Under the pieces are notes generated by a model that ran no database searches, was not told the origin of the DNA, and saw only the letters and a list, made by a program, of their open reading frames with translations. From Heterodontus francisci (taxonomy: Eukaryota): 64,000 bases of DNA. The position numbers were made by a program, and so were the translations under genes. The DNA is taken from NCBI RefSeq assembly GCF_036365525.1, contig NC_090404.1, positions 37,133,497 to 37,197,496 on the forward strand, in the 5' to 3' direction. Numbering within the stretch: position 1 is the first letter of the stretch; every line of letters starts with the position of its first letter. Below, in pieces: positions 2,255-59,150 of this stretch.

Positions 2255-4653
2255 TACATTACTCTACCCCCCTCACTCACTCTAACCTGTCCCCCTCTGA
2301 ACTTGAGGCACTCCGTTCTCTCAGGTCTAACCCCGACATGGTCATCAAACCTGCAGACAAGGGTGGTGCTGTTGTTGTATGGCGTACCGACCTCTACCTT
2401 GCAGAAGCTCAACGCCAACTCACAGACACCTCTTCCTACCTCCCTCTGGACCATGACCCCACCACCGAACATCAAGCCAGCGTCCAAAGGACTGTCACTG
2501 ACCACATCTCCTCTGGAGATCTTCCCTCCACGGCTTCCGACCTCATAGTCCCACAACCCCGGACAGCCTGCTTCTACCTCCTTCCCAAAATCCACAAACG
2601 GGACTGTCCCGGCAGACCCATTGTTTCAGCCTGCTCCTGCCCCACTGAACTTATTTCTTCCGATCCAGACTCTATCTTTTCTCCGCTGGTCCAGTCTCTT
2701 CCCACCTACATCCGTGACTCTTCTGACGCCCTACGTCATTTTGACAATTTCCAGTTTCCTGGTCCCAACCGCCTCCTCTTCACTGTGGACGTCCAATCGC
2801 CCTACACCTCCATCCCCCACCAGGATGGTTGGAGGGCTCTCCGCTTCTTCCTGGAACAGAGGCCCAACCAGTCCCCATCCACCACCACCCTCCTCCACCT
2901 CGCTGAACTTGTTCTCACATTGAACAACTTCTTCTTCAACTCCACGCACTTCCTTCAAGTAAAAGGTGTCGCTATGGGTACCCGCATGGGTCCTAGTTAT
3001 GCCTGTCTTTTTGTGGGATATGTCGAGCATTCTTTGTTCCAGTCCTACTCAGGCCTCCCTCCCCCAACTCTTTTTCCGGTACATTGATGACTGTATCGGT
3101 GCCGTTTCCTGCTCCCGCACCGAACTAGAAAACGTTATCAACTTTGCTTCCAATTTCCACCCTTCTCTCACCTTTACATGGTCCATCTCTGACACTTCCC
3201 TTCCCTTCCTCGACTTCTCTGTCTCCATCTCTGGGGATAGGTTGTCTACTAATATCCATTATAAGCCCACCGACTCCCACAGCTACCTCGACTACACTTC
3301 TTCACACCCTACCTCCTGTAAGGACTCCATTCCATTCTCCCAGTTTCTCCGTCTCCGACGCATCTGCTCTGATGATGCTACCTTCCATGACATGCTTCTG
3401 ATATGACCTCCTTTTTCCTCAACCGAGGATTTCCCCCCACTGTGGTTGACAGGGCCCTCAACTGTGTCCGACCCATTCCCCGCACCTCTACCCTCACCCC
3501 TTCCCCTCCCTCCCTGAACCGTGACAGGGTTCCCCTTGTCCTCACTTTTCATCCCCCCAGCCTCCATATCCAAAGGATCATCCTCTGCCATTTTCGCCAC
3601 CTCCAGCGTGATGCCACTACCAGTCGCATCTTCCCCTCCCTTCCCCTGTCAGCATTCCGAAGGGATCGTTCCCTCCGTGACACCCTGGTCCACCCCTCCA
3701 TTACCCCCACCACCTCGTCCCCGTCCCAGGGCACCTTCCCCTGCAATCGCAGGAGGTGTAATACCTGCCCATTTACCTCCTCTCTCCTCACTATCCCAGG
3801 CCCCAAACACTCCTTTCAGGTGAAGCAGCGATTTACTTGTACTTCTTTCAATGTAGTATACTGTATTAGCTGCTCACAGTGTGGTCTCCTCTACATTGGG
3901 GAGACCAAGCGCAGACTGGGTGACCGCTTTGCGGAACATCTCTGCTCAGTCCGCAAGCAGCACCCTGAGCTTCCGGTTGCTCGCCATTTCAACACTCCCC
4001 CCTGCTCTCATGCTCACATCTCTGTCCTGGGATTGCTGCAGTGTTCCAGTGAACATCAATGCAAGCTCGAGGAACAGCATCTCATCTACCGATTAGGCAC
4101 ACTACAGCCTGCCGGACTGAACGTTAAGTTCAATAATTTCAGAGCATGACAGCCCCCCATTTTACTTTCATTTTTAGTTATTTTTTCTTCCTTTTTTTTC
4201 CATTCTTTTTACATTTTTTACAATCTTTTTTTGCATTTATTTCATTTCATCTTAGTTTGTTCAGTTTGCTTACCCACTGTTTTTTTCAGGTTTTTTGTCA
4301 GGTTTGCACTTGCTGCTGTTCAATATTCAGTTTATTCACACCTAATCTCTCCCAATGTTTTGTCTTTCAACACACCATTAACATATTGTTTGCCTGTTCC
4401 CCGTGACCTTTTGGTCAGCTATGTGGCCTGGTCCAATCTACACCTTCTCCTTTGCTATCTCTTGCCCCAGCCCCACCTCACTTGCTTATAATCTGTGACT
4501 TTTCTAATATTTGTCAGTTCCGAAGAAGGGTCACTGACCCGAAACGTTAACTCTGCTTCTCTTTCCACAGATGTTGCCAGACCTGCTGAGTGATTCCAGC
4601 ATTTCTTGTTTTTGTTTCAGATTTCCAGCATCCACAGTATTTTGCTTTTATTA
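2255..4653 (+). mobile_element. Penelope-like retroelement (RT + GIY-YIG), 5'-truncated, frameshifted
   Basis: KPADKG, LPKIHK, GRPIVS, GVAMG, FRYIDD, LPFLD motifs; Cys linker CNRRRCNTC; GIY-YIG NVVY..C..C..YIGETKR; 13-bp TSD TAAAGGTAACAGG at 2242-2254 and 4654-4666. Confidence 0.92.
4516..4552 (+). ncRNA. Putative minimal hammerhead ribozyme motif in Penelope 3' end
   Basis: AGTT-CCGAAGA-A-GGGTC act GACCC-GAAA-CG-TT-AACT; stems I and II pair; palindromic ACGT helix III. Confidence 0.55.
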
Positions 4654-7600
4654 TAAAGGTAACAGGGTTGTGGTTGTGGGTGATTTTAACTTCCCCAATA
4701 TTGACTGGGACTCACTTAGTGCTAGGGGCTTGGCTGGGGCAGAATTTGTGAGGAGCATCCAGGAGGGCTTCTTGAAACAGTATATAGACAGTCCAACTAG
4801 GGATGGGGCCATTCTGGACCTGGTATTGGGGAATGAGCCCGGCCAGGTGGTCGAAGTTTCAGTGGGGGCGTATTTCGGGAGCAGTGACCAAAATTCCATA
4901 AGTTTTAAGGTACTTGTGGATAAGGATAAGAGTAGTCCTCGGGTGAAGGTGCTAAATTGGGGGAAGGCTAATTATAACAATATTCGTCAGGAACTGAAGA
5001 ATTTCGATTGGGAGCGGCTGTTTGAGGCTAAATCAACATCTGACATGTGGGAGTCTTTCAAACATCAGCTGATTAGAATCCAGGACCAGCATGTTCCTGT
5101 GAGGAAGAAAGACAAGTTTGGCAAGTTTCGGGAAGCTTGGATAACACGGGATATTGTGAGCCTCGTCAAAAAGAAAAAGGAAGCATTTGTAACGGCTGGA
5201 AGGCTAGGAACAGATGAAGCACTTGAGGAATATAAAGAAAGTGGAAAGAAACGTAAGCAAGGAGTTAGGAGGGCTAAAAAGGGTCATGAAAAGTCATTGG
5301 CAAACAGGATTAAGGAAAATCCCAAGGCTTTTTACACATATATAAAGAGCAAGAGGGTAACCCACTCAAGGACAGAGATGGGAATCTATGTGTGGAGCCA
5401 GAGGAAATGGGCGAGGTGCTAAATGAGCACTTTGCATCAGTATTCACCAAAGAGAAGGACTTGGTGGATGATGAGCCCAGGGAAGGGAGTGCAGAGAGTC
5501 TCAGTCATATCATTATCAAAAAGGAGGAGGTGTTGGGTCTTGCAAAGCATTAAGGTAGATAAATCCCCAGGGCCTGATGGGATCTACCCTAGAATACTGA
5601 GGGAGGCAAGGGAAGAAATTGCTGGGGCCTTGACAGAAATCTTTGCATCCTCATTGGCTACAGGTGAGGTCCCAGAGGAATGCAGAATCGCCAATGTTGT
5701 TCCTTTGTTTAAAAAGGGTGGTAAGGATAATCCAGGAAATTATAGGCCGGTGAGCCTTACGTCAGTGGTAGGGAAACTATTAGAGAGGATTATTCGGGAC
5801 AGGATTTACTCCCATTTGGAAACAAACGAAATTATTCGCGAGAAACAGCATGGTTTTGTGAAGGGGAGATCGTGTCTTACTAATTTGATTGATTTTTTTG
5901 AGGAAGTGACGAAGATGATTGATGAAGGAAGGGCAGTGGATGTCATCTATGTGGACTTTAGTAAAGCCTTTGACAAGGTCCCACATGGCAGACTGGTACA
6001 AAAGGTGAAGTCACACGGGATCAGAGATGAGCTGAAAAGATGGAAACAGAACTGGCTCGTTCATAGACGACAGAGGGTATCACTGGATGGGTGTTTTTCT
6101 GAATGGAGGGATGTGACTAGTGGTGTTCCGTCGGGATCAGTGCTGGGACCTTTGCTGTTTGTAGTATATATAAATGATTTGGAGGAAAATGTTGCTGGTC
6201 TGATTAGTAAGTTTGCGAATGACACAAAGGTTGGTGGAGTTGTGGATAATGATGAGGATTGTCAGAGGATACAGCAGGATATAGATGGGTTGGCGACTTG
6301 GGCGGAGAAATGGCAGATGGTGTTTAATCCGGACAAATGTGAGGTAATGCATTTTGGAAGGTCTAATGCAGGTGGGAGGTATACAGTAAATGGCAGAACC
6401 CTTAGGAGTATTGACAGGCAGAGAGATCTGGGCGTACAGGTCCACAGGTCACTGAAAGTGGCAACGCAGGTGGATAAGGTAGTCAAGAAGGCATACGGCA
6501 TGCTTGCCTTCATCGGTCGGGGCATAGAGTACAAAAATTGGCAAGTCATGTTGCAGCTGTACAGAACCTTAGTTAGGCCACACTTAGAATATTGTGTGCA
6601 ATGCTGGTCGCCACACTACCAGAAGAATGTGGAAGCTTTGGAGAGGGTACAGAGGAGGTTTACCAGGATGTTGCCTGGTCTGGAGGGCATTAGCTATGAG
6701 GAGAGGTTGGAAAAACTCGGATTGTTTTCACTGGAACGACGGAGGTGGATTGGCGACATCATGGAGGTTTACAAAGTTAAGAGCGGCATGGACAGAGTGG
6801 ATAGTCAGAAGCTTTTTCCCAGGGTGGAAGTGTCAGTTACTAGGGGACATAGGTTTAAGGTGAGAGGGGCAGAGTTTAGACGGGATGTGCGAGGCACGTT
6901 CTTTACACAGAGGGTGGTGAGTGCCTGGAACTTGCTGCCAGGGGAGGTGGTGGAAACAGATACTATAGCGATGTTTAAGAGACATCTTGACAAATATATG
7001 AATAGGAAGGGAATAGAGGGATATGGGCCCTGGAAGTGCAGAAGGTTTTAGTTTCGGCAGGCATCAAGATCAGCGCAGGCTTGCAGGGCCGAATGGCCTG
7101 TTCCTGTGCTGAACTGTTCTTTGTTCTTTGTGCATCTGATCCTGCACCCCTCTCAAAGTAGCAAAATTTATATTCTACTGCCTCTCCATGTGGCTACTCC
7201 GAAACTGTAGAACTTCACATTTATCTGCATTAAACTGCATCTCCCATGCGCCTGCTCCTTTCACCAATCTGTCTAGGCGCTACTCAAGTCTGCTGCCACC
7301 ATGCTCACTATTTACTACGTTGTCAAGTTTCGCATAGTCGGCAAGTTTCCAAATTGGACTCCCAATACTCAAGTCTCGGTCTCTTATATATCACAATGTT
7401 ACTCTAATCAATCTTCTTATTGTTCAATTGAGTCATGGAAGTCAGTCAATGATTCAATTGCTTTTAAAAAAAATGTCAGCATGAAAGCAATTTCCAAGCA
7501 GAGTGTTGTTAACAGGTAGGATGCACTTGAATGTGAGCTTGCATTGCTTTTGTCTGTCATCCAAAGGAAAAGTGGCTATTGAATTCATTATGCTTATCAA

Positions 7601-8149
7601 ACTGCACCTGTTCCTTATACAGTAATCTCTTGTCTAATTTTGAGTAACTTCAGTCCATTATTAACCTTCAGCACACATCCATATTTTTTTCCAAGGGACC
7701 TAGAAAATGTTTTTTTTATACATTGTTAGAGAATCGTTTCGGTTTTAGTGTCCTTGCTTTGTTTTGGCTCGTACCTAACTTAGGACTTATGAGCTATCAA
7801 CAAACAAGAAAAACAATTGTCATAATAGCAATCCTGAAAGCCACACTGCATACATTTCTTCAGTCAAAAATGTGGGCGTTTCAAAAAACAGGATAAATAT
7901 TGCAACTGAAAATAAGGGTAGTGCATACCTGTTGAATAATTGCTTTTTACAGCCTCACAGAACAGGAAAGGGATAATATAACTGACATTCCAGGGACATT
8001 AATAATAAATAAGGGAATGGGACTCATGAAATTTAAGGTAAGTAAGTTTAGAGTGTTTCCCCAAAAAAGTGTTGAAGACTGAAAAATCCCCAAGGACCGA
8101 ATGGTTTTTAATCCCATGGTTTTAATTAGAAACAGGTGAAGATATTATA

Positions 8150-9570
8150 GATGCTTCAACGATAACCTTCCAAAACTCTCTTGATTGAGGAATTGTTCAT
8201 TTAAATTGGAAAATTGCAAATAATGTCCATTATTTTTGAAAGGTGAGAGAAAGAGACCTATTGTGGGAAGGTATTAGCATCTATAATTTCGGAGAGTGAT
8301 TGCGGTCATAGAGAAATTTGAGCTGATTAGAAAAAAGCCTGTGAAAGGTAGGCGATATATAACGAACCTAATTATAATAACTAAAGTATTAACAGGGGAA
8401 CAGCTATGGATGTAGTTACTATCAACTTCCATAAGACATTTGATAAGCTTCCACATAAGAGACTGTTGGATACAAAATAATGCACAGGGAATGGAAGGTG
8501 ACGTGGTTAGGAGGTTAGTTAGGAGGTGGAGCATAGAAAGTAGGGACACTGGGTATCACCTCTCATTGGAAATAACTGACAATGAGATCCCACAAGTCTC
8601 TGTCTGGGGCCTCAACTGTTCACTATATTTGTTCATGATGTGGATAAAACAAGTGAGAGTCATATATGGAAGTTATCCGATGACACCAAGTTTGGTGATA
8701 TAGTACGTGGTGCAGACAGGAGCATACAGTTACATATAGACATTGATAGGTTCAGTGAGAGAGTGAAACTGTGGCAGATGGGGTTCAACACAGGCACCTG
8801 GGAATTCAATCATTTCCAACCAAAGACGGATAGATTTGAGTACTATTTATCTCGGAATATTGCAGGTCTATTGAGTTTTAAAGGTTTGTGTGCACAGTCC
8901 ACTAACATATAGTAGTCACGTACAAAAATAATCATAAAAGCTAATGGGATGATATATATTTTAACTTGAGGGCTAGAAAATAAAGGATAGGACTTTTTGT
9001 TACAGCGTGATAAATCCCTGTTTACAATACATCTGGAATACTGCGTATAGATGTTGGCACCACAACTGAGAAAGAATATACTGACCTTTGAAGATGTAAA
9101 GCACAAATTCACAAGAACGTTTACCAACGCTCCAAGGATTAGATTATATGAAGAGATTAAATAAATCCGGTGTTTAATCTCTTGAATATAAAAGTTTACG
9201 TGGCGATTTTATTGGTATTTTGAAAGGAAGTGGTAGGGTTGTATAGAAGAAAACTATTTCCATCAGAAGGAGCGTCTCCGACACGGGACAGGATCTTAAA
9301 ATTCAGAGACAGGTCATTCAGAAGAGAGGTGAGAAAACACTTCACACAAAGCGTGTTAGAAGTGTAGAATTCTCTCCCACAAAAAAAGATGCTCACTCAA
9401 TTAATAATTTGAGATCTGAAATCGGTAGATATATTCATTTATGCAAAACGTTGCAAAACAAATTCAGCCAAAGTGAATGGATGGAATTAAGATGCAAATC
9501 ATCCATGATCTCAGTAAATAGCAGCACAGGCTCGATGGGCTGAATAGTTTACTTCTGCTCCTATGTCCTT
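8150..9570 (+). mobile_element. Old degenerate CR1 LINE
   Basis: Residual RT motifs (FDKLPH, SDDTKFG, VKLWQMGFN, HLEYC) with many stops. Confidence 0.75.
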
Positions 9571-28825: not shown

Positions 28826-30200
28826 CCACCTCACCGAGGCAATCTCCAGCGTGGTAGATACTTCACCCCATAGAACAGCGCATCCACCACTCACCGAGAC
28901 ACCCTCCAGCGTGGAGAGACATAACTTCCCATAGAACAGCCGTTCCTCCACTCAACGAGACATTTTCCTTCAAGGATAGATACCACAATCCAGAGCACAT
29001 AGATTCCTCTACTCACAGAAGCATTCTCTAATTGGATAGATACCAGACCCCATAGAAAAGTGGCGAATCCACGCACTGAGACACATTCAGCAGAGAGAGA
29101 GACCACAGTCCAGATGTTCCCCGATTCACCAAGACATCCTCAGCACGGACAGATACCGCATCCTAGAGACCAGAGGTCTCCCACTCACTGAGACACACTC
29201 TAACATGGACAGAAATTCAGCCCATACAATATCGGTTCCCCTACTCATCGAGACGTCTTCCTGCATAGGTAGGATATCACCCCCCACTATACAGAGACTC
29301 CCCCACTCAAAGGGCCATCCTTCAACATGGATAGCTATCGCATCCCATATAGCATGGATTATCCCACTCACCACCACACCCTCCAGCATGAATAGGTAGA
29401 GAACATGGATTATCCCACTCACTGAGACACCTGCAGCATCGATAGAATCCACAGGCTATAGAACATGGATTCCCCACTCACCGAGACACACTTCAGCACA
29501 GATAGACACCACATCCCATAGAACAGCTGCTCCCCCACGAACGGAGACACCCTCCAACAGAGAGAGAGATACCACACCCTATAGGACAGTGGTTTCCTCA
29601 CTCACTGAAACATTCTTTAGCATAGATGGATACCATACCCCATCAAACATCAGTTGCTTCACTCACTGAGACATACTCCAGCATGGATACCTAACAAACC
29701 TTATAGAACAGTAGTTCCCCCAGTCGTCAAAATATCCTACAGCAGGGAGAAATACCACACGCCAAGGAACAAGTGATCCCTCACTCACTGTGACACCCTC
29801 CAGCATGGATAGTTACCACATTCCATTGAACAGACGTTCTCCCACTCACTAAGACACACTCCAGGAAGGAGAGATACCACATCTCATCGAACAACGGTTG
29901 CCTCACTCACTGAGGCACACGCCTGCATGGATAGATACCACATCTCATAGAACAGCGCTCCCCCCACCCTACCGCCCCCCGCCCCCCTTAACCGAGACAT
30001 TCTCCAGAGTGGAGAGACGCCGGACCTCAAAGAACAGCGGTTCTTCCACTCAATCAGGCAGCCTCCAACATGGCGAGTTAACCACAACCCAGAGAACAGC
30101 GGTTCCCAAATCAGCGAGACAGCCTCCTTCTTAGACCGATACCACACATCTGAACAGTGGTTCCACCACTCATACAGATGCAATCCTGTATGGATCCCAT
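28826..30200. repeat. Degenerate minisatellite, ~61-bp unit, ~22 copies, in C5-TM1 intron
   Basis: Consensus approx. CCACTCACTGAGACACCCTCCAGCATGGATAGATACCACATCCCATAGAACAGCGGTTCC recurring at ~60-62 nt period. Confidence 0.9.
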
Positions 30201-43009: not shown

Positions 43010-43165
43010 GGGTGGCACAGCGGCTCAATGGTTAGCATCGCAGCCTCACAGCTCCAGCGACCTGGGTTTAGTTCTGGGTACTGTCTGGGTGCAGTTTACA
43101 AGTTCTCCCTGTGACCGTGTGGGTTTCTGTTGGGTGTTCCGGTTTCCTCAAACAGCCAAAGACTG
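43010..43165 (+). mobile_element. tRNA-derived SINE head (HE1-like), cut by a Penelope tail
   Basis: gggtggcacagcggctcaatggttagc...ctgggtt..; homologous to the minus copy at 48270-48614. Confidence 0.75.
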
Positions 43166-43282
43166 GGTTCCGAAGAAGGGTCACTGACCCGAAACGTTAA
43201 CTCAGCTTCTTTCTCCACAGATGCTGCCAGACCTGCTGAGTATTTCCAGCATTTCTTGTTTTTATTTCAGATTTCCAGCATC
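43166..43282 (+). mobile_element. Penelope 3'-end fragment beginning at hammerhead-like motif
   Basis: Near-identical to 4517-4650 apart from a short deletion. Confidence 0.85.
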
Positions 43283-43329
43283 CACAGTATTTTGCTCTCA
43301 TAATTTGAATGTCTGTTATAATTTATTCT

Positions 43330-48175: not shown

Positions 48176-48706
48176 GGGCTAGAAATTCTTCTCAGGCGAT
48201 GGCACAGAACAGGCCTTATCGGATCAGGCGCCTGTTATAGGCAGTGCCTGATATTCAGTTCCATTGTCAGTTAGTTAGAGATACAGCACTGAAACAGGCC
48301 CTTCTGCCCACCGAGTCTGTGCCGACCATCAACCGCCCATTTATACTAATCCTACACGAATTCCATATTCCTCCCACATCCCCACCTGTCACTATATTTC
48401 CCTACCACCTACCTATATTAGGAGCAACTTTTAATGGCCCATTTACCTATCAACCTGCAAGTCTTTGGCATGTGGGAGGAAACTGGAGCACCCGGAGAAA
48501 ACCCACACAGACACCGGGAGAACTTGCAAACTCCACACAGGCAGCACCCAGAATTGAACCCGTGTCGCTGGAGCTGTGAGGCTGTGGTGCTAACCACTGC
48601 ACCACTGTACCGCCCCAACGGAATTTAATATTAAGCGCTGCATAGAACGGGCAGCCGATCTGATCCCACCCGTTTTACATCACTGCCCAAGATGAATATC
48701 GAGCAC
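48176..48706. mobile_element. Palindromic MITE-like element (arms 48176-48266 and 48616-48706) with a SINE inserted at its centre
   Basis: Arms are imperfect reverse complements over ~90 nt. Confidence 0.7.
48270..48614 (-). mobile_element. Full-length tRNA-derived SINE (HE1-like) with CR1-type tail
   Basis: Minus strand starts gggcggtacagtggtgcagtggttagc (A box) ..gggttcaattc (B box); ends in CR1-like tail. Confidence 0.85.
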
Positions 48707-58184: not shown

Positions 58185-59150
58185 TTTTTTACTTGTCTCA
58201 TGGGATGTTGGCATTGCTGGCAAGGCCAGCATTTATTGACCATCCCTTATTTCCTTTGAGAGGTGATGGTGAGCCGCATTCTTGAATTGCTGCTGTTCAT
58301 CTGGTGCAAGTACACCCACCGTGCTGTTAGGGAGGGATTTCCAGGATTTTGAACCAGTAACAGAGAAAGAACAGCGTAATATTTCCAAGTCAGAATGGTG
58401 CGTGGCTTGGAGAGGAACTTGCAGGTGGTGGTGCTCCCACACGTCTGCTGTCCTTGTCGTTCTAGTTTGTAGAGGTCGTGGGTTTGGAAGGTGCTGTCGA
58501 AGGAGACTTGGTGAGTTGCTGCAGTGCCTCTTGTATATAGTCCACACTGCTGTTACTGTACGTTGATGGTGGAGTGAGTAAATGTTGAAAGTGGTTGATG
58601 GGGTGCTGATCAAGCAGACTGCTTCGTCCTGGATGGTGTTGAGCTTCCTGAGTGTTGTTGGAAATGCACGCATCCAAGCAAATGGAGATTATTCCATCAC
58701 ACTCTAATATTTGTCAGTTCCAAAGAAGGGTCACTGACCCGAAACGTTAACTCTGCTTCTCTTTCCACAGATGCTGCCAGACCTGCTGAGTGAATCCAGC
58801 ATTTCTTGTTTTTGTTTCAGATTTCCAGCATCCGCAGTATTTTGCTTTTATTATTATTCCATCACACTCCTGACTTGTGCCTTTTCGATATTGGACAGGC
58901 TTTGGGGAGTCAGGAGGTGGGTTACATGTCGCAGAATTCCCAGCCTCTGACCTTCTCTTGTAGCCACAGTATGTATGTGGCTGGTCTAGATCAGTTTGTG
59001 TTCTATGGTAACCCCAGGATGTTGATACTGGAGGATTCAACGATGGAAATGTTGTTGGATATGAAGTAGAGATGGTTTGATTCTCTCGTATTGTAGATCA
59101 TCATTGCCTGGCATTTGTGTGTCGTGAATATTACTTACTATTCCTATTCA
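58185..59150 (-). mobile_element. Non-CR1 LINE 3' fragment, interrupted by a Penelope tail
   Basis: ORF KLNTIQDEAVCLI..SLHHQRTV..IYKRHC; A-rich end. Confidence 0.75.
58705..58852 (+). mobile_element. 148-bp Penelope 3'-end insertion with 17-bp TSD
   Basis: TSD ATTATTCCATCACACTC at 58688-58704 and 58853-58869; body near-identical to 4505-4653. Confidence 0.9.

What the first reader, a model, noticed from the sequence alone, without database searches (positions are those of the whole stretch)
4516..4552. Minimal hammerhead-ribozyme motif with covariation at four shark Penelope 3' ends
Seen: four copies (4516-4552, 26408-26444, 43166-43202, 58716-58752) read stem I AGTT / core C(T/C)GANGA / extra A / stem II 5-bp hairpin / GAAA / CG / TT / AACT. 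Stem II covaries: GGGTC..GACCC in three copies, AGGTC..GACCT in the divergent 26.4 kb copy, which also has the canonical CTGATGA core. Known: Penelope-like elements in animals carry minimal type I hammerheads whose palindromic helix III (here ACGT) works as a dimer, and an extra A after A9 occurs in a natural viroid hammerhead. Inference: this shark family encodes a self-cleaving RNA with a predicted GUU cleavage site. Three copies have U4C, the 58.7 kb copy also has G5A (likely dead), and the 26.4 kb copy has lost the ACGT palindrome. Two copies sit inside IgNAR introns, antisense to the gene.
Basis: partly seen in the sequence, partly recalled or inferred. Interest (0 to 1): 0.7.

Follow-up and report, generated by a model that had tools for sequence, protein, structure and literature searches.

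The report
Hammerhead heading shark Penelope transcripts
The four motifs are copies of the small hammerhead self-cutting RNA motif already known from Penelope-like jumping genes; in this shark genome the youngest family carries a core change (U4 to C) in over 23,000 identical copies, and about half of its intact copies start at the motif's first letters, so the motif likely forms the very front of the element's RNA and is likely mostly copied uncut.

Summary
The motif is real and of a known kind: the minimal type I hammerhead in the pLTR of a Penelope-like element (PLE), likely Neptune clade. An intact tandem element (3,290-bp unit, 915-aa ORF) has it in every pLTR. The exact 37-mer occurs 23,220 times. 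The stem II change is real at subfamily level (A-U, then G·U, then G-C with decreasing age), but it is one pair, and the motif is no more conserved than the downstream tail. U4C is fixed in the youngest, recently expanded subfamilies, not decay. About 53% of copies with an exact young core begin at stem I's 5' edge, 29 nt after a TATA box; the predicted cut site shows no clear peak. Best reading: the hammerhead is the first ~37 nt of the capped transcript, weak and dimer- or protein-dependent, and mostly uncut RNA is reverse transcribed. Cleavage is untested. The IgNAR-intron copies are antisense passengers. The scan noted the same things before, on other DNA of this genome and in other shark genomes.

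The parts
2255..4654 (+). 5'-truncated PLE copy (RT, C-x4-C-x2-C linker, GIY-YIG, 3' pLTR and tail), frame broken by stops and frameshifts, inserted in a LINE with a 12-bp target-site duplication
   Evidence: (intact relative L073)
4433..4437 (+). CCAAT box, 83 nt before the predicted start (inferred promoter element)
   Evidence: 40 of 43 young copies that extend upstream; 3 of 37 in subfamily B
4487..4491 (+). TATA-like box (TATAA), 29 nt before the predicted start
   Evidence: 40 of 43 young copies; TTAAAA-type at the same place in older subfamilies
4514..4520 (+). Initiator-like TCAGTTC (consensus YYANWYY recalled); its A at 4516 is the first base of stem I and the predicted transcription start
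4516..4552 (+). Minimal type I hammerhead, young subfamily (U4C, G10.1-C11.1): stem I 4516-19/4549-52, core 4520-26, extra A 4527, stem II 4528-32/4536-40, GAAA 4541-44, ACGU palindrome 4544-47; predicted cut between 4548 and 4549
4553..4654 (+). pLTR tail; genomic 3' ends cluster near +93-100 and +126-135 from C3, the two likely RT start sites; the ATG of intact elements lies about 35 nt beyond the second
   Evidence: compare PMC11167929
23933..24096 (.). Inverted pair of pLTR tails without the hammerhead; both arms begin 2-6 nt after the predicted cut
26356..26547 (+). pLTR stub of older subfamily B; hammerhead 26408-26444 with canonical CUGAUGA, A10.1-U11.1 and a privately lost palindrome; in the IgNAR C-TM intron, antisense
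43167..43304 (+). pLTR stub that starts at the second base of stem I, preceded by G; hammerhead with U4C; in the IgNAR J-C1 intron, antisense
58703..58854 (+). pLTR stub with a target-site duplication of about 15 bp; hammerhead 58716-58752 with U4C and G5A (likely dead)

Best explanation
The motif is the minimal type I hammerhead of a very abundant Penelope-like retroelement; it likely forms the first ~37 bases of the element's capped RNA and is predicted to cut only weakly (as a dimer or with the element's protein), so mostly uncut RNA is likely what gets copied into the genome. Shown: the motif sits in every pLTR of an intact tandem element; a TATA box, an initiator-like site and a sharp wall of copy starts coincide with stem I's first base; U4C is fixed in the youngest subfamilies. 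Inferred: Pol II starts at the A of AGTT. RT starts internally at one of two tail sites; in the transcript's own 5' pLTR it runs off the cap and leaves 100-140-bp stubs such as 43.2 kb, and in the 3' pLTR it gives longer truncated or full copies such as 2.3-4.7 kb. When cleavage does happen, it would clip off a capped 33-nt leader or free unit-length RNA from tandem transcripts. The window's copies are dead or passive insertions.
For: Intact tandem element L073 with three identical U4C motifs 3,290 bp apart and a 915-aa ORF from the first Met. Match to the published min-HHR consensus. Age series with stem II kept paired at every step: A-U in subfamilies B/C (5.8% and 13% non-CpG tail divergence), G·U in A4 and most of A3 (5.7%, 4.5%), G-C in A1/A2 (about 2%). 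The G·U state is not CpG decay: T in 11 of 11 A4 copies with 0 of 11 G-to-A at the partner base. None of 11 invariant core positions tested differs among the six consensuses, and 3 of 6 real changes fall in the 5 free positions (post hoc p=0.02). Exact genome counts from the core outwards: 33,221, 23,220, 14,661, 14,182, i.e. retention 0.70, 0.63, then 0.97 per 4 nt; about 53% of exact-core young copies start within -7..0. 28 of 31 inspected drop-outs are true edges. 42 of 167 copies unselected for their 5' end start at -6..0, 6 per nt against 0.1-0.3 per nt upstream. TATAA at -29 in 40 of 43 young copies; G precedes 11 of 19 solo starts at -3/-4 (29% expected, p=0.008, post hoc). In the anole PLE the hammerhead cuts only with protein, is not needed for insertion in vitro, and unprocessed RNA is the main template (PMC11167929).
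Against: No RNA 5' end or cleavage was observed: only assembled contigs were available, mostly of guessed library type. The covariation is one pair on one lineage path, and the shuffle control (4 of 500) does not correct for relatedness. The motif is not more conserved than the tail, so promoter or RT-binding constraints could explain part of it. A minor cut-site class is not excluded: 13 of 167 copies start at +26..+32. Of these, 4 are broken by another repeat inserted at the palindrome, 1 more looks the same, 5 are inverted arms and 3 are unexplained; the window's own 23.9-kb pair also starts just after the cut. The cap-G count does not remove target microhomology.
Confidence: 0.62

Rival explanations
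1. Obligatory processing: tandem transcripts are cut at both hammerheads (as an intramolecular dimer) into unit-length RNA that circularises and is the normal template, as Cervera and De la Pena proposed.
For: Tandem arrays with a motif in each unit exist (further motifs 3,290 bp apart). The structure was kept through a compensatory path. Dimer and trimer constructs of a related min-HHR cleave weakly (PMC4209133). A few copies start near the cut. Circular templates would leave no 5' end at the cut.
Against: About half of exact-core young copies end at stem I's 5' edge, which needs linear uncut RNA. There is no peak at +29 (3 of 167, none a clean solo copy). A weakening core change was fixed in the most recent burst. 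Anole HHR mutants insert normally in vitro.
Confidence: 0.15
2. In the young U4C lineage the ribozyme is vestigial; the sequence persists because it overlaps the start site, promoter and RT-recognition region.
For: U4C is fixed in the youngest subfamilies. The tail is as conserved as the motif. Naiad PLEs spread without canonical hammerheads (PMC8557442).
Against: U4C is the core change reported to keep enough activity for viroid infectivity (PMC3088659 passage). The same young lineage completed the G·U to G-C repair of stem II and kept all 11 tested invariant positions.
Confidence: 0.18
3. The wall of 5' ends comes from a 3' splice site (pyrimidine tract, CAG|TT) at stem I, as in D. virilis Penelope where the intron ends at helix I, or from a separate SINE-like master, and not from a transcription start.
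For: CTAAT/CTAAC plus pyrimidines plus CAG lie just upstream in all subfamily consensuses. The D. virilis precedent is in PMC4209133.
Against: About 8,000 young copies keep the AG but nothing further upstream. No shared upstream exon appears and target-site duplications often abut the start. The edge recurs in several subfamilies. The TATA spacing fits a start at the A.
Confidence: 0.05

Closest known systems
Minimal hammerheads (min-HHR) in pLTRs of metazoan PLEs, Cervera and De la Pena 2014 (PMC4209133; parts 1-2 of 4 of the text and part 2 of 3 of supplement 2 read)
   Same: Type I, 4-bp helix I, extra base after A9, 5-bp helix II, GAAA-N-N-U-H with a palindromic 15.2-16.2, U-rich flanks, one motif per pLTR, thousands of solo copies. 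A10.1-U11.1 also appears there (D. willistoni, one coelacanth family).
   Different: No shark in the parts seen (supplement file 1 could not be searched). All cores in the alignment part seen have U4, whereas the youngest shark subfamilies have C4. Copy number is about 10-fold above the 4,000-9,000 reported for coelacanth and Xenopus. Position at the transcription start was not described in the parts read.
Poseidon element PAc of Anolis carolinensis (PMC11167929; part 2 of the main text and passages read)
   Same: pLTR hammerhead; two internal RT start sites that define a tail (here two 3'-end clusters about 36 nt apart); uncut RNA as the main template.
   Different: In PAc the ORF begins in stem II and RT starts inside the ORF. 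Here the ATG is about 143 nt after the cut, both RT start sites lie in the 5' UTR, and the protein has a Neptune-type C-x4-C-x2-C linker.
U4C viroid hammerhead (cited in PMC3088659; passage read; original paper not seen)
   Same: Same core change, reported to lower activity in vitro yet allow function in vivo.
   Different: That is a full hammerhead with a stable helix III in a viroid; here the change sits on an already minimal, dimer-dependent motif.
Non-LTR retrozymes (bioRxiv 10.64898/2026.07.22.740005; parts 1-2 of 5 and passages read)
   Same: Type I hammerheads derived from PLE pLTRs; reported in one chondrichthyan genome.
   Different: Retrozymes are short tandem repeats with a hammerhead per unit. 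These copies are dispersed pLTR stubs or 3.3-kb autonomous units.

Membership tests
Metazoan PLE minimal hammerhead | Core C3-U4-G5-A6-N7-G8-A9 | tested here: inconclusive
   Met in subfamilies A3, A4, B, C and the 26.4-kb copy; U4C in A1/A2 and three window copies
Metazoan PLE minimal hammerhead | Extra nucleotide between A9 and 10.1 | tested here: met
   A in all consensuses
Metazoan PLE minimal hammerhead | Helix II with a paired 10.1-11.1 (usually G-C) | tested here: met
   In evenly placed samples: A-U 27, G·U 24, G-C 11, other 5 of 67 copies; helix II cells 92% paired
Metazoan PLE minimal hammerhead | G12-A13-A14-A15.1, palindromic 15.2-16.2, U16.1-H17 | tested here: met
   GAAA-CG-UU in the consensuses; decay at the CpG in old copies
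Metazoan PLE minimal hammerhead | Short helix I closing a type I motif | tested here: met
   AGUU/AACU, 90% of cells paired, no real covariation; centroid folds of the four window copies show it
Metazoan PLE minimal hammerhead | Located in both pLTRs of a PLE | tested here: met
   L073 has a motif in each of three pLTRs around two intact ORFs
Metazoan PLE minimal hammerhead | Self-cleavage as a dimer or with protein | not testable with these tools
   Only contigs available; no clear genomic peak at the cut
Rfam hammerhead families | Covariance-model match | tested here: not met
   No hammerhead family among 10 matches up to E=10
Neptune-clade EN+ PLE | RT, then CX2-5CxxC linker, then C-terminal GIY-YIG | tested here: met
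   C-x4-C-x2-C before the GIY-YIG motif in the translation; definition from PMC8557442 passages; Pfam gave only RVT_1, below its cut-off
Neptune-clade EN+ PLE | Placement in the RT phylogeny | not tested
   No tree was built
Non-LTR retrozyme | Short tandem non-coding units, each with a hammerhead | tested here: not met
   Copies seen are dispersed stubs, inverted pairs or 3.29-kb coding tandems; no genome-wide tandem search was run

The most novel reading that the evidence does not exclude
The PLE hammerhead is a cap-proximal switch: it is built from the first nucleotides of the capped transcript, cuts only when element RNAs dimerise or the element's protein binds, and then removes a capped 33-nt leader, damping translation at high RNA levels. 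The U4C change weakened this brake in the lineage behind the latest burst of tens of thousands of copies.
Probability: 0.15. Interest if true: 0.75.

Novelty: new member of a known kind. Interest (0 to 1): 0.38.

Why it matters
What PLE hammerheads do in vivo is an open question (PMC8557442 passage). This family offers an intact, very young tandem element, a dated natural series of core and stem variants (U4 to C4; A-U to G·U to G-C), and tens of thousands of copy ends that map the template RNA. They place the ribozyme at the likely transcription start and indicate that uncut RNA is copied, which agrees with the one in-vitro system. That makes U4 versus C4, and cap removal versus circularisation, directly testable. 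The window's four copies themselves are ordinary debris with no sign of a role in IgNAR.

Tried and rejected
Rfam scan: no hammerhead hit; the top hits are miRNA-like matches to the inverted pair at 23.95-24.04 kb. Folding z-scores gave no signal. The unconstrained two-strand fold prefers an extended stem II duplex over the active double hammerhead; the ACGU duplex is only -1.7 kcal/mol. Two tail-only DNA searches returned nothing; the tool skips very common words. A search for a sister family with a GUC site gave 8 point variants of this family. RNA evidence: contigs only, so no ends, strand or level. In runs of organisms D and E, low-agreement (about 0.5) loose-end consensuses hint at a stem II variant with a change at 10.2-11.2; too weak to count as covariation. 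Rejected: CpG decay as the source of the covariation; a cleavage footprint read from the +26..+32 starts (mostly insertions of another repeat, or inverted arms); the splice-site and SINE-master readings of the 5' wall. Lunse et al. 2017 on PLE hammerhead dimers is not held and may already list U4C or shark examples. Searches for a shark PLE hammerhead in print (listings, plus passages of PMC6155905) and for U4C found no direct report; the library lacks most subscription papers.

Full report
Observation. Positions below count from C3 = 0 (window 4520), so stem I starts at -4 and the predicted cut falls between +28 and +29. A structure-aware descriptor found 7 hits in 400 kb of evenly placed genome samples plus 2 in the window, against 0 in 20 shuffles, and 16 in 1.2 Mb against 0 in 10 shuffles (about 80,000 genome-wide by extrapolation). 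The samples lie at round positions on large contigs, so they are not strictly random. Exact counts are 23,220 for the 37-mer and 90,606 for a 27-nt piece of the tail; 95 family copies in 1.2 Mb extrapolate to several hundred thousand. Rfam has no hammerhead match.

The element. The 4.5-kb motif ends a 5'-truncated, frame-broken PLE (2255-4654) with a 12-bp target-site duplication inside a LINE. Its relatives are 97-98% identical. One of them, L073, is an intact tandem: 3,290-bp units 99.9% identical to each other, a 915-aa ORF from the first Met (RT, C-x4-C-x2-C linker, GIY-YIG) and a U4C hammerhead in each pLTR. The ATG lies about 143 nt after the predicted cut. The linker fits the Neptune definition given in PMC8557442 (passages); no tree was built. 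The other three window copies are pLTR stubs. 3' ends of 167 copies fall in two clusters near +93-100 and +126-135, matching the two RT start sites and tail of the anole element (PMC11167929).

Covariation and age. Among 152 copies that cover the motif, sorting by four diagnostic positions gives a series: C (n=7, 13% non-CpG tail divergence; CUGAUGA, A-U), B (43; 5.8%; A-U), A4 (11; 5.7%; G·U), A3 (15; 4.5%; CUGAAGA, 10 G·U and 5 G-C), A1 (64; 2.3%) and A2 (5; 1.6%), both with U4C and G-C. Seven copies were left as 'other'. This set is enriched for search hits; in the evenly placed samples alone the pair reads A-U 27, G·U 24, G-C 11, other 5 of 67. G·U is not CpG decay (11 of 11 T, 0 of 11 partner changes in A4). 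On 48 sampled copies 91% of cells pair and the covariation score exceeds all but 4 of 500 shuffles, a control that ignores relatedness. Across the six consensuses 7 of 37 motif positions vary (one is CpG decay), none of the 11 invariant core positions tested, against 11 of 97 in the tail and 14 of 36 upstream. The pattern fits selection on a hammerhead (post hoc p=0.02), but the motif is not more conserved than the tail.

U4C. It is the master state of the youngest subfamilies, not damage. A natural viroid U4C variant is reported to lose much activity in vitro yet keep enough in vivo (PMC3088659, passage). The part of the published PLE alignment I could read shows only U4. The 58.7-kb G5A and the 26.4-kb loss of the palindrome are post-insertion changes.

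Where copies begin. In 167 copies not selected for their 5' end (95 from evenly placed samples, 34 from a tail pattern, 38 from a tail DNA query), 42 begin at -6..0, i.e. 6 per nt against 0.1-0.3 per nt upstream. Genome-wide exact counts confirm the wall: 33,221 from 0, 23,220 from -4, 14,661 from -8, 14,182 from -12. With 0.967 per 4 nt as the mutation baseline, about 53% of exact-core young copies begin within -7..0. Of 31 inspected loci that match from -4 but not from -8, 28 are true edges (three of them one triplicated event) and 3 are sequence variants. The A at -4 sits in an initiator-like YCAGTTC, 29 nt after TATAA (40 of 43 young copies that extend upstream) and 83 nt after CCAAT (40 of 43; only 3 of 37 in subfamily B). 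G precedes 11 of 19 solo starts at -3/-4 (29% expected, p=0.008), a possible trace of a copied cap; this is post hoc, and microhomology was not removed. I looked for the TATA box and recounted the G after earlier scan notes mentioned them; the wall itself I had found before.

The cut site. Only 3 of 167 copies start at +29, none a clean solo copy. Of 13 starting at +26..+32, 4 are the downstream halves of motifs split by another repeat inserted at the palindrome, 1 shows the same repeat end, 5 are inverted arms and 3 are unexplained. The window's inverted pair at 23.93-24.10 kb starts 2-6 nt after the cut. A minor cleaved class of a few percent is therefore neither shown nor excluded. RNA data were contigs only and cannot show ends; they do show the stretch in runs of several coded organisms.

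Mechanism. Shown: anatomy, copy numbers, subfamily series and end distributions. Inferred: Pol II starts at stem I's first base, so the hammerhead is the capped leader; RT starting in the tail of the 5' pLTR runs off the cap and leaves stubs, while starting in the 3' pLTR gives long copies. From the literature: related motifs cleave weakly as dimers (PMC4209133) or only with element protein, and are dispensable for insertion in vitro. Untested: any cleavage here. Rivals are obligatory processing to circles (0.15), a vestigial ribozyme in the U4C lineage (0.18) and a splice-site or SINE origin of the wall (0.05).

IgNAR. V, J, C and TM exons lie on the minus strand. The 43.2-kb copy is in the J-C1 intron and the 26.4-kb copy in the C-TM intron, both antisense. 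At about 80 copies per Mb, five copies in 64 kb is what the genome average gives, so no link to the gene is implied.

Novelty. This is a new member of a known kind. My searches found no direct report for sharks or for U4C in a PLE, but Lunse et al. 2017 and supplement file 1 of PMC4209133 could not be seen. The scan has noted the same family and readings many times on other DNA (1,336 notes in at least 37 genomes hold the search words); these are unchecked AI notes and not support. The interest lies in U4C in a recent burst and the start-site position, which make the open question of PLE hammerhead function testable.

Noticed in passing
L112:1870(-), L105:1304(-), L198:4835(+), L241:3155(+): A different repeat, 240-1,150 bp long with similar GGGC/GGGG-rich ends, has inserted at the palindromic helix III/cut site of the hammerhead in 4 of 95 sampled copies; it may prefer this site and can mimic a cleavage footprint.
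   Followed up: partly
window 23933-24096: Fold-back pair of pLTR tails without the hammerhead; it gives the miRNA-like Rfam hits. Such inverted pairs are common (46 of 167 copies flagged).
   Followed up: partly
window 25400-51600 (-): Germline IgNAR cluster (V with RSS, D-type RSS sites, J, five C exons, TM exon). The window's repeat copies have near-identical paralogues at five or more other places on contig C34, so the cluster is multiplied.
   Followed up: partly
window 28850-30080: Degenerate tandem array with a 61-bp period in the IgNAR C-TM intron.
   Followed up: no
window 43010-43166: The 43.2-kb stub directly follows the 5' part of a SINE-like repeat (also at 48471-48615, inverted); it may be a chimera or an insertion followed by deletion.
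   Followed up: no
L042, L055, L087: Loci holding copies of different subfamilies close together or nested, consistent with insertion into older pLTRs.
   Followed up: no
L144:1468(-): A copy with a longer loop II region and a GAGTC 5' arm, like the loose-end variant seen in runs of organisms D and E; possibly an older sister family.
   Followed up: no
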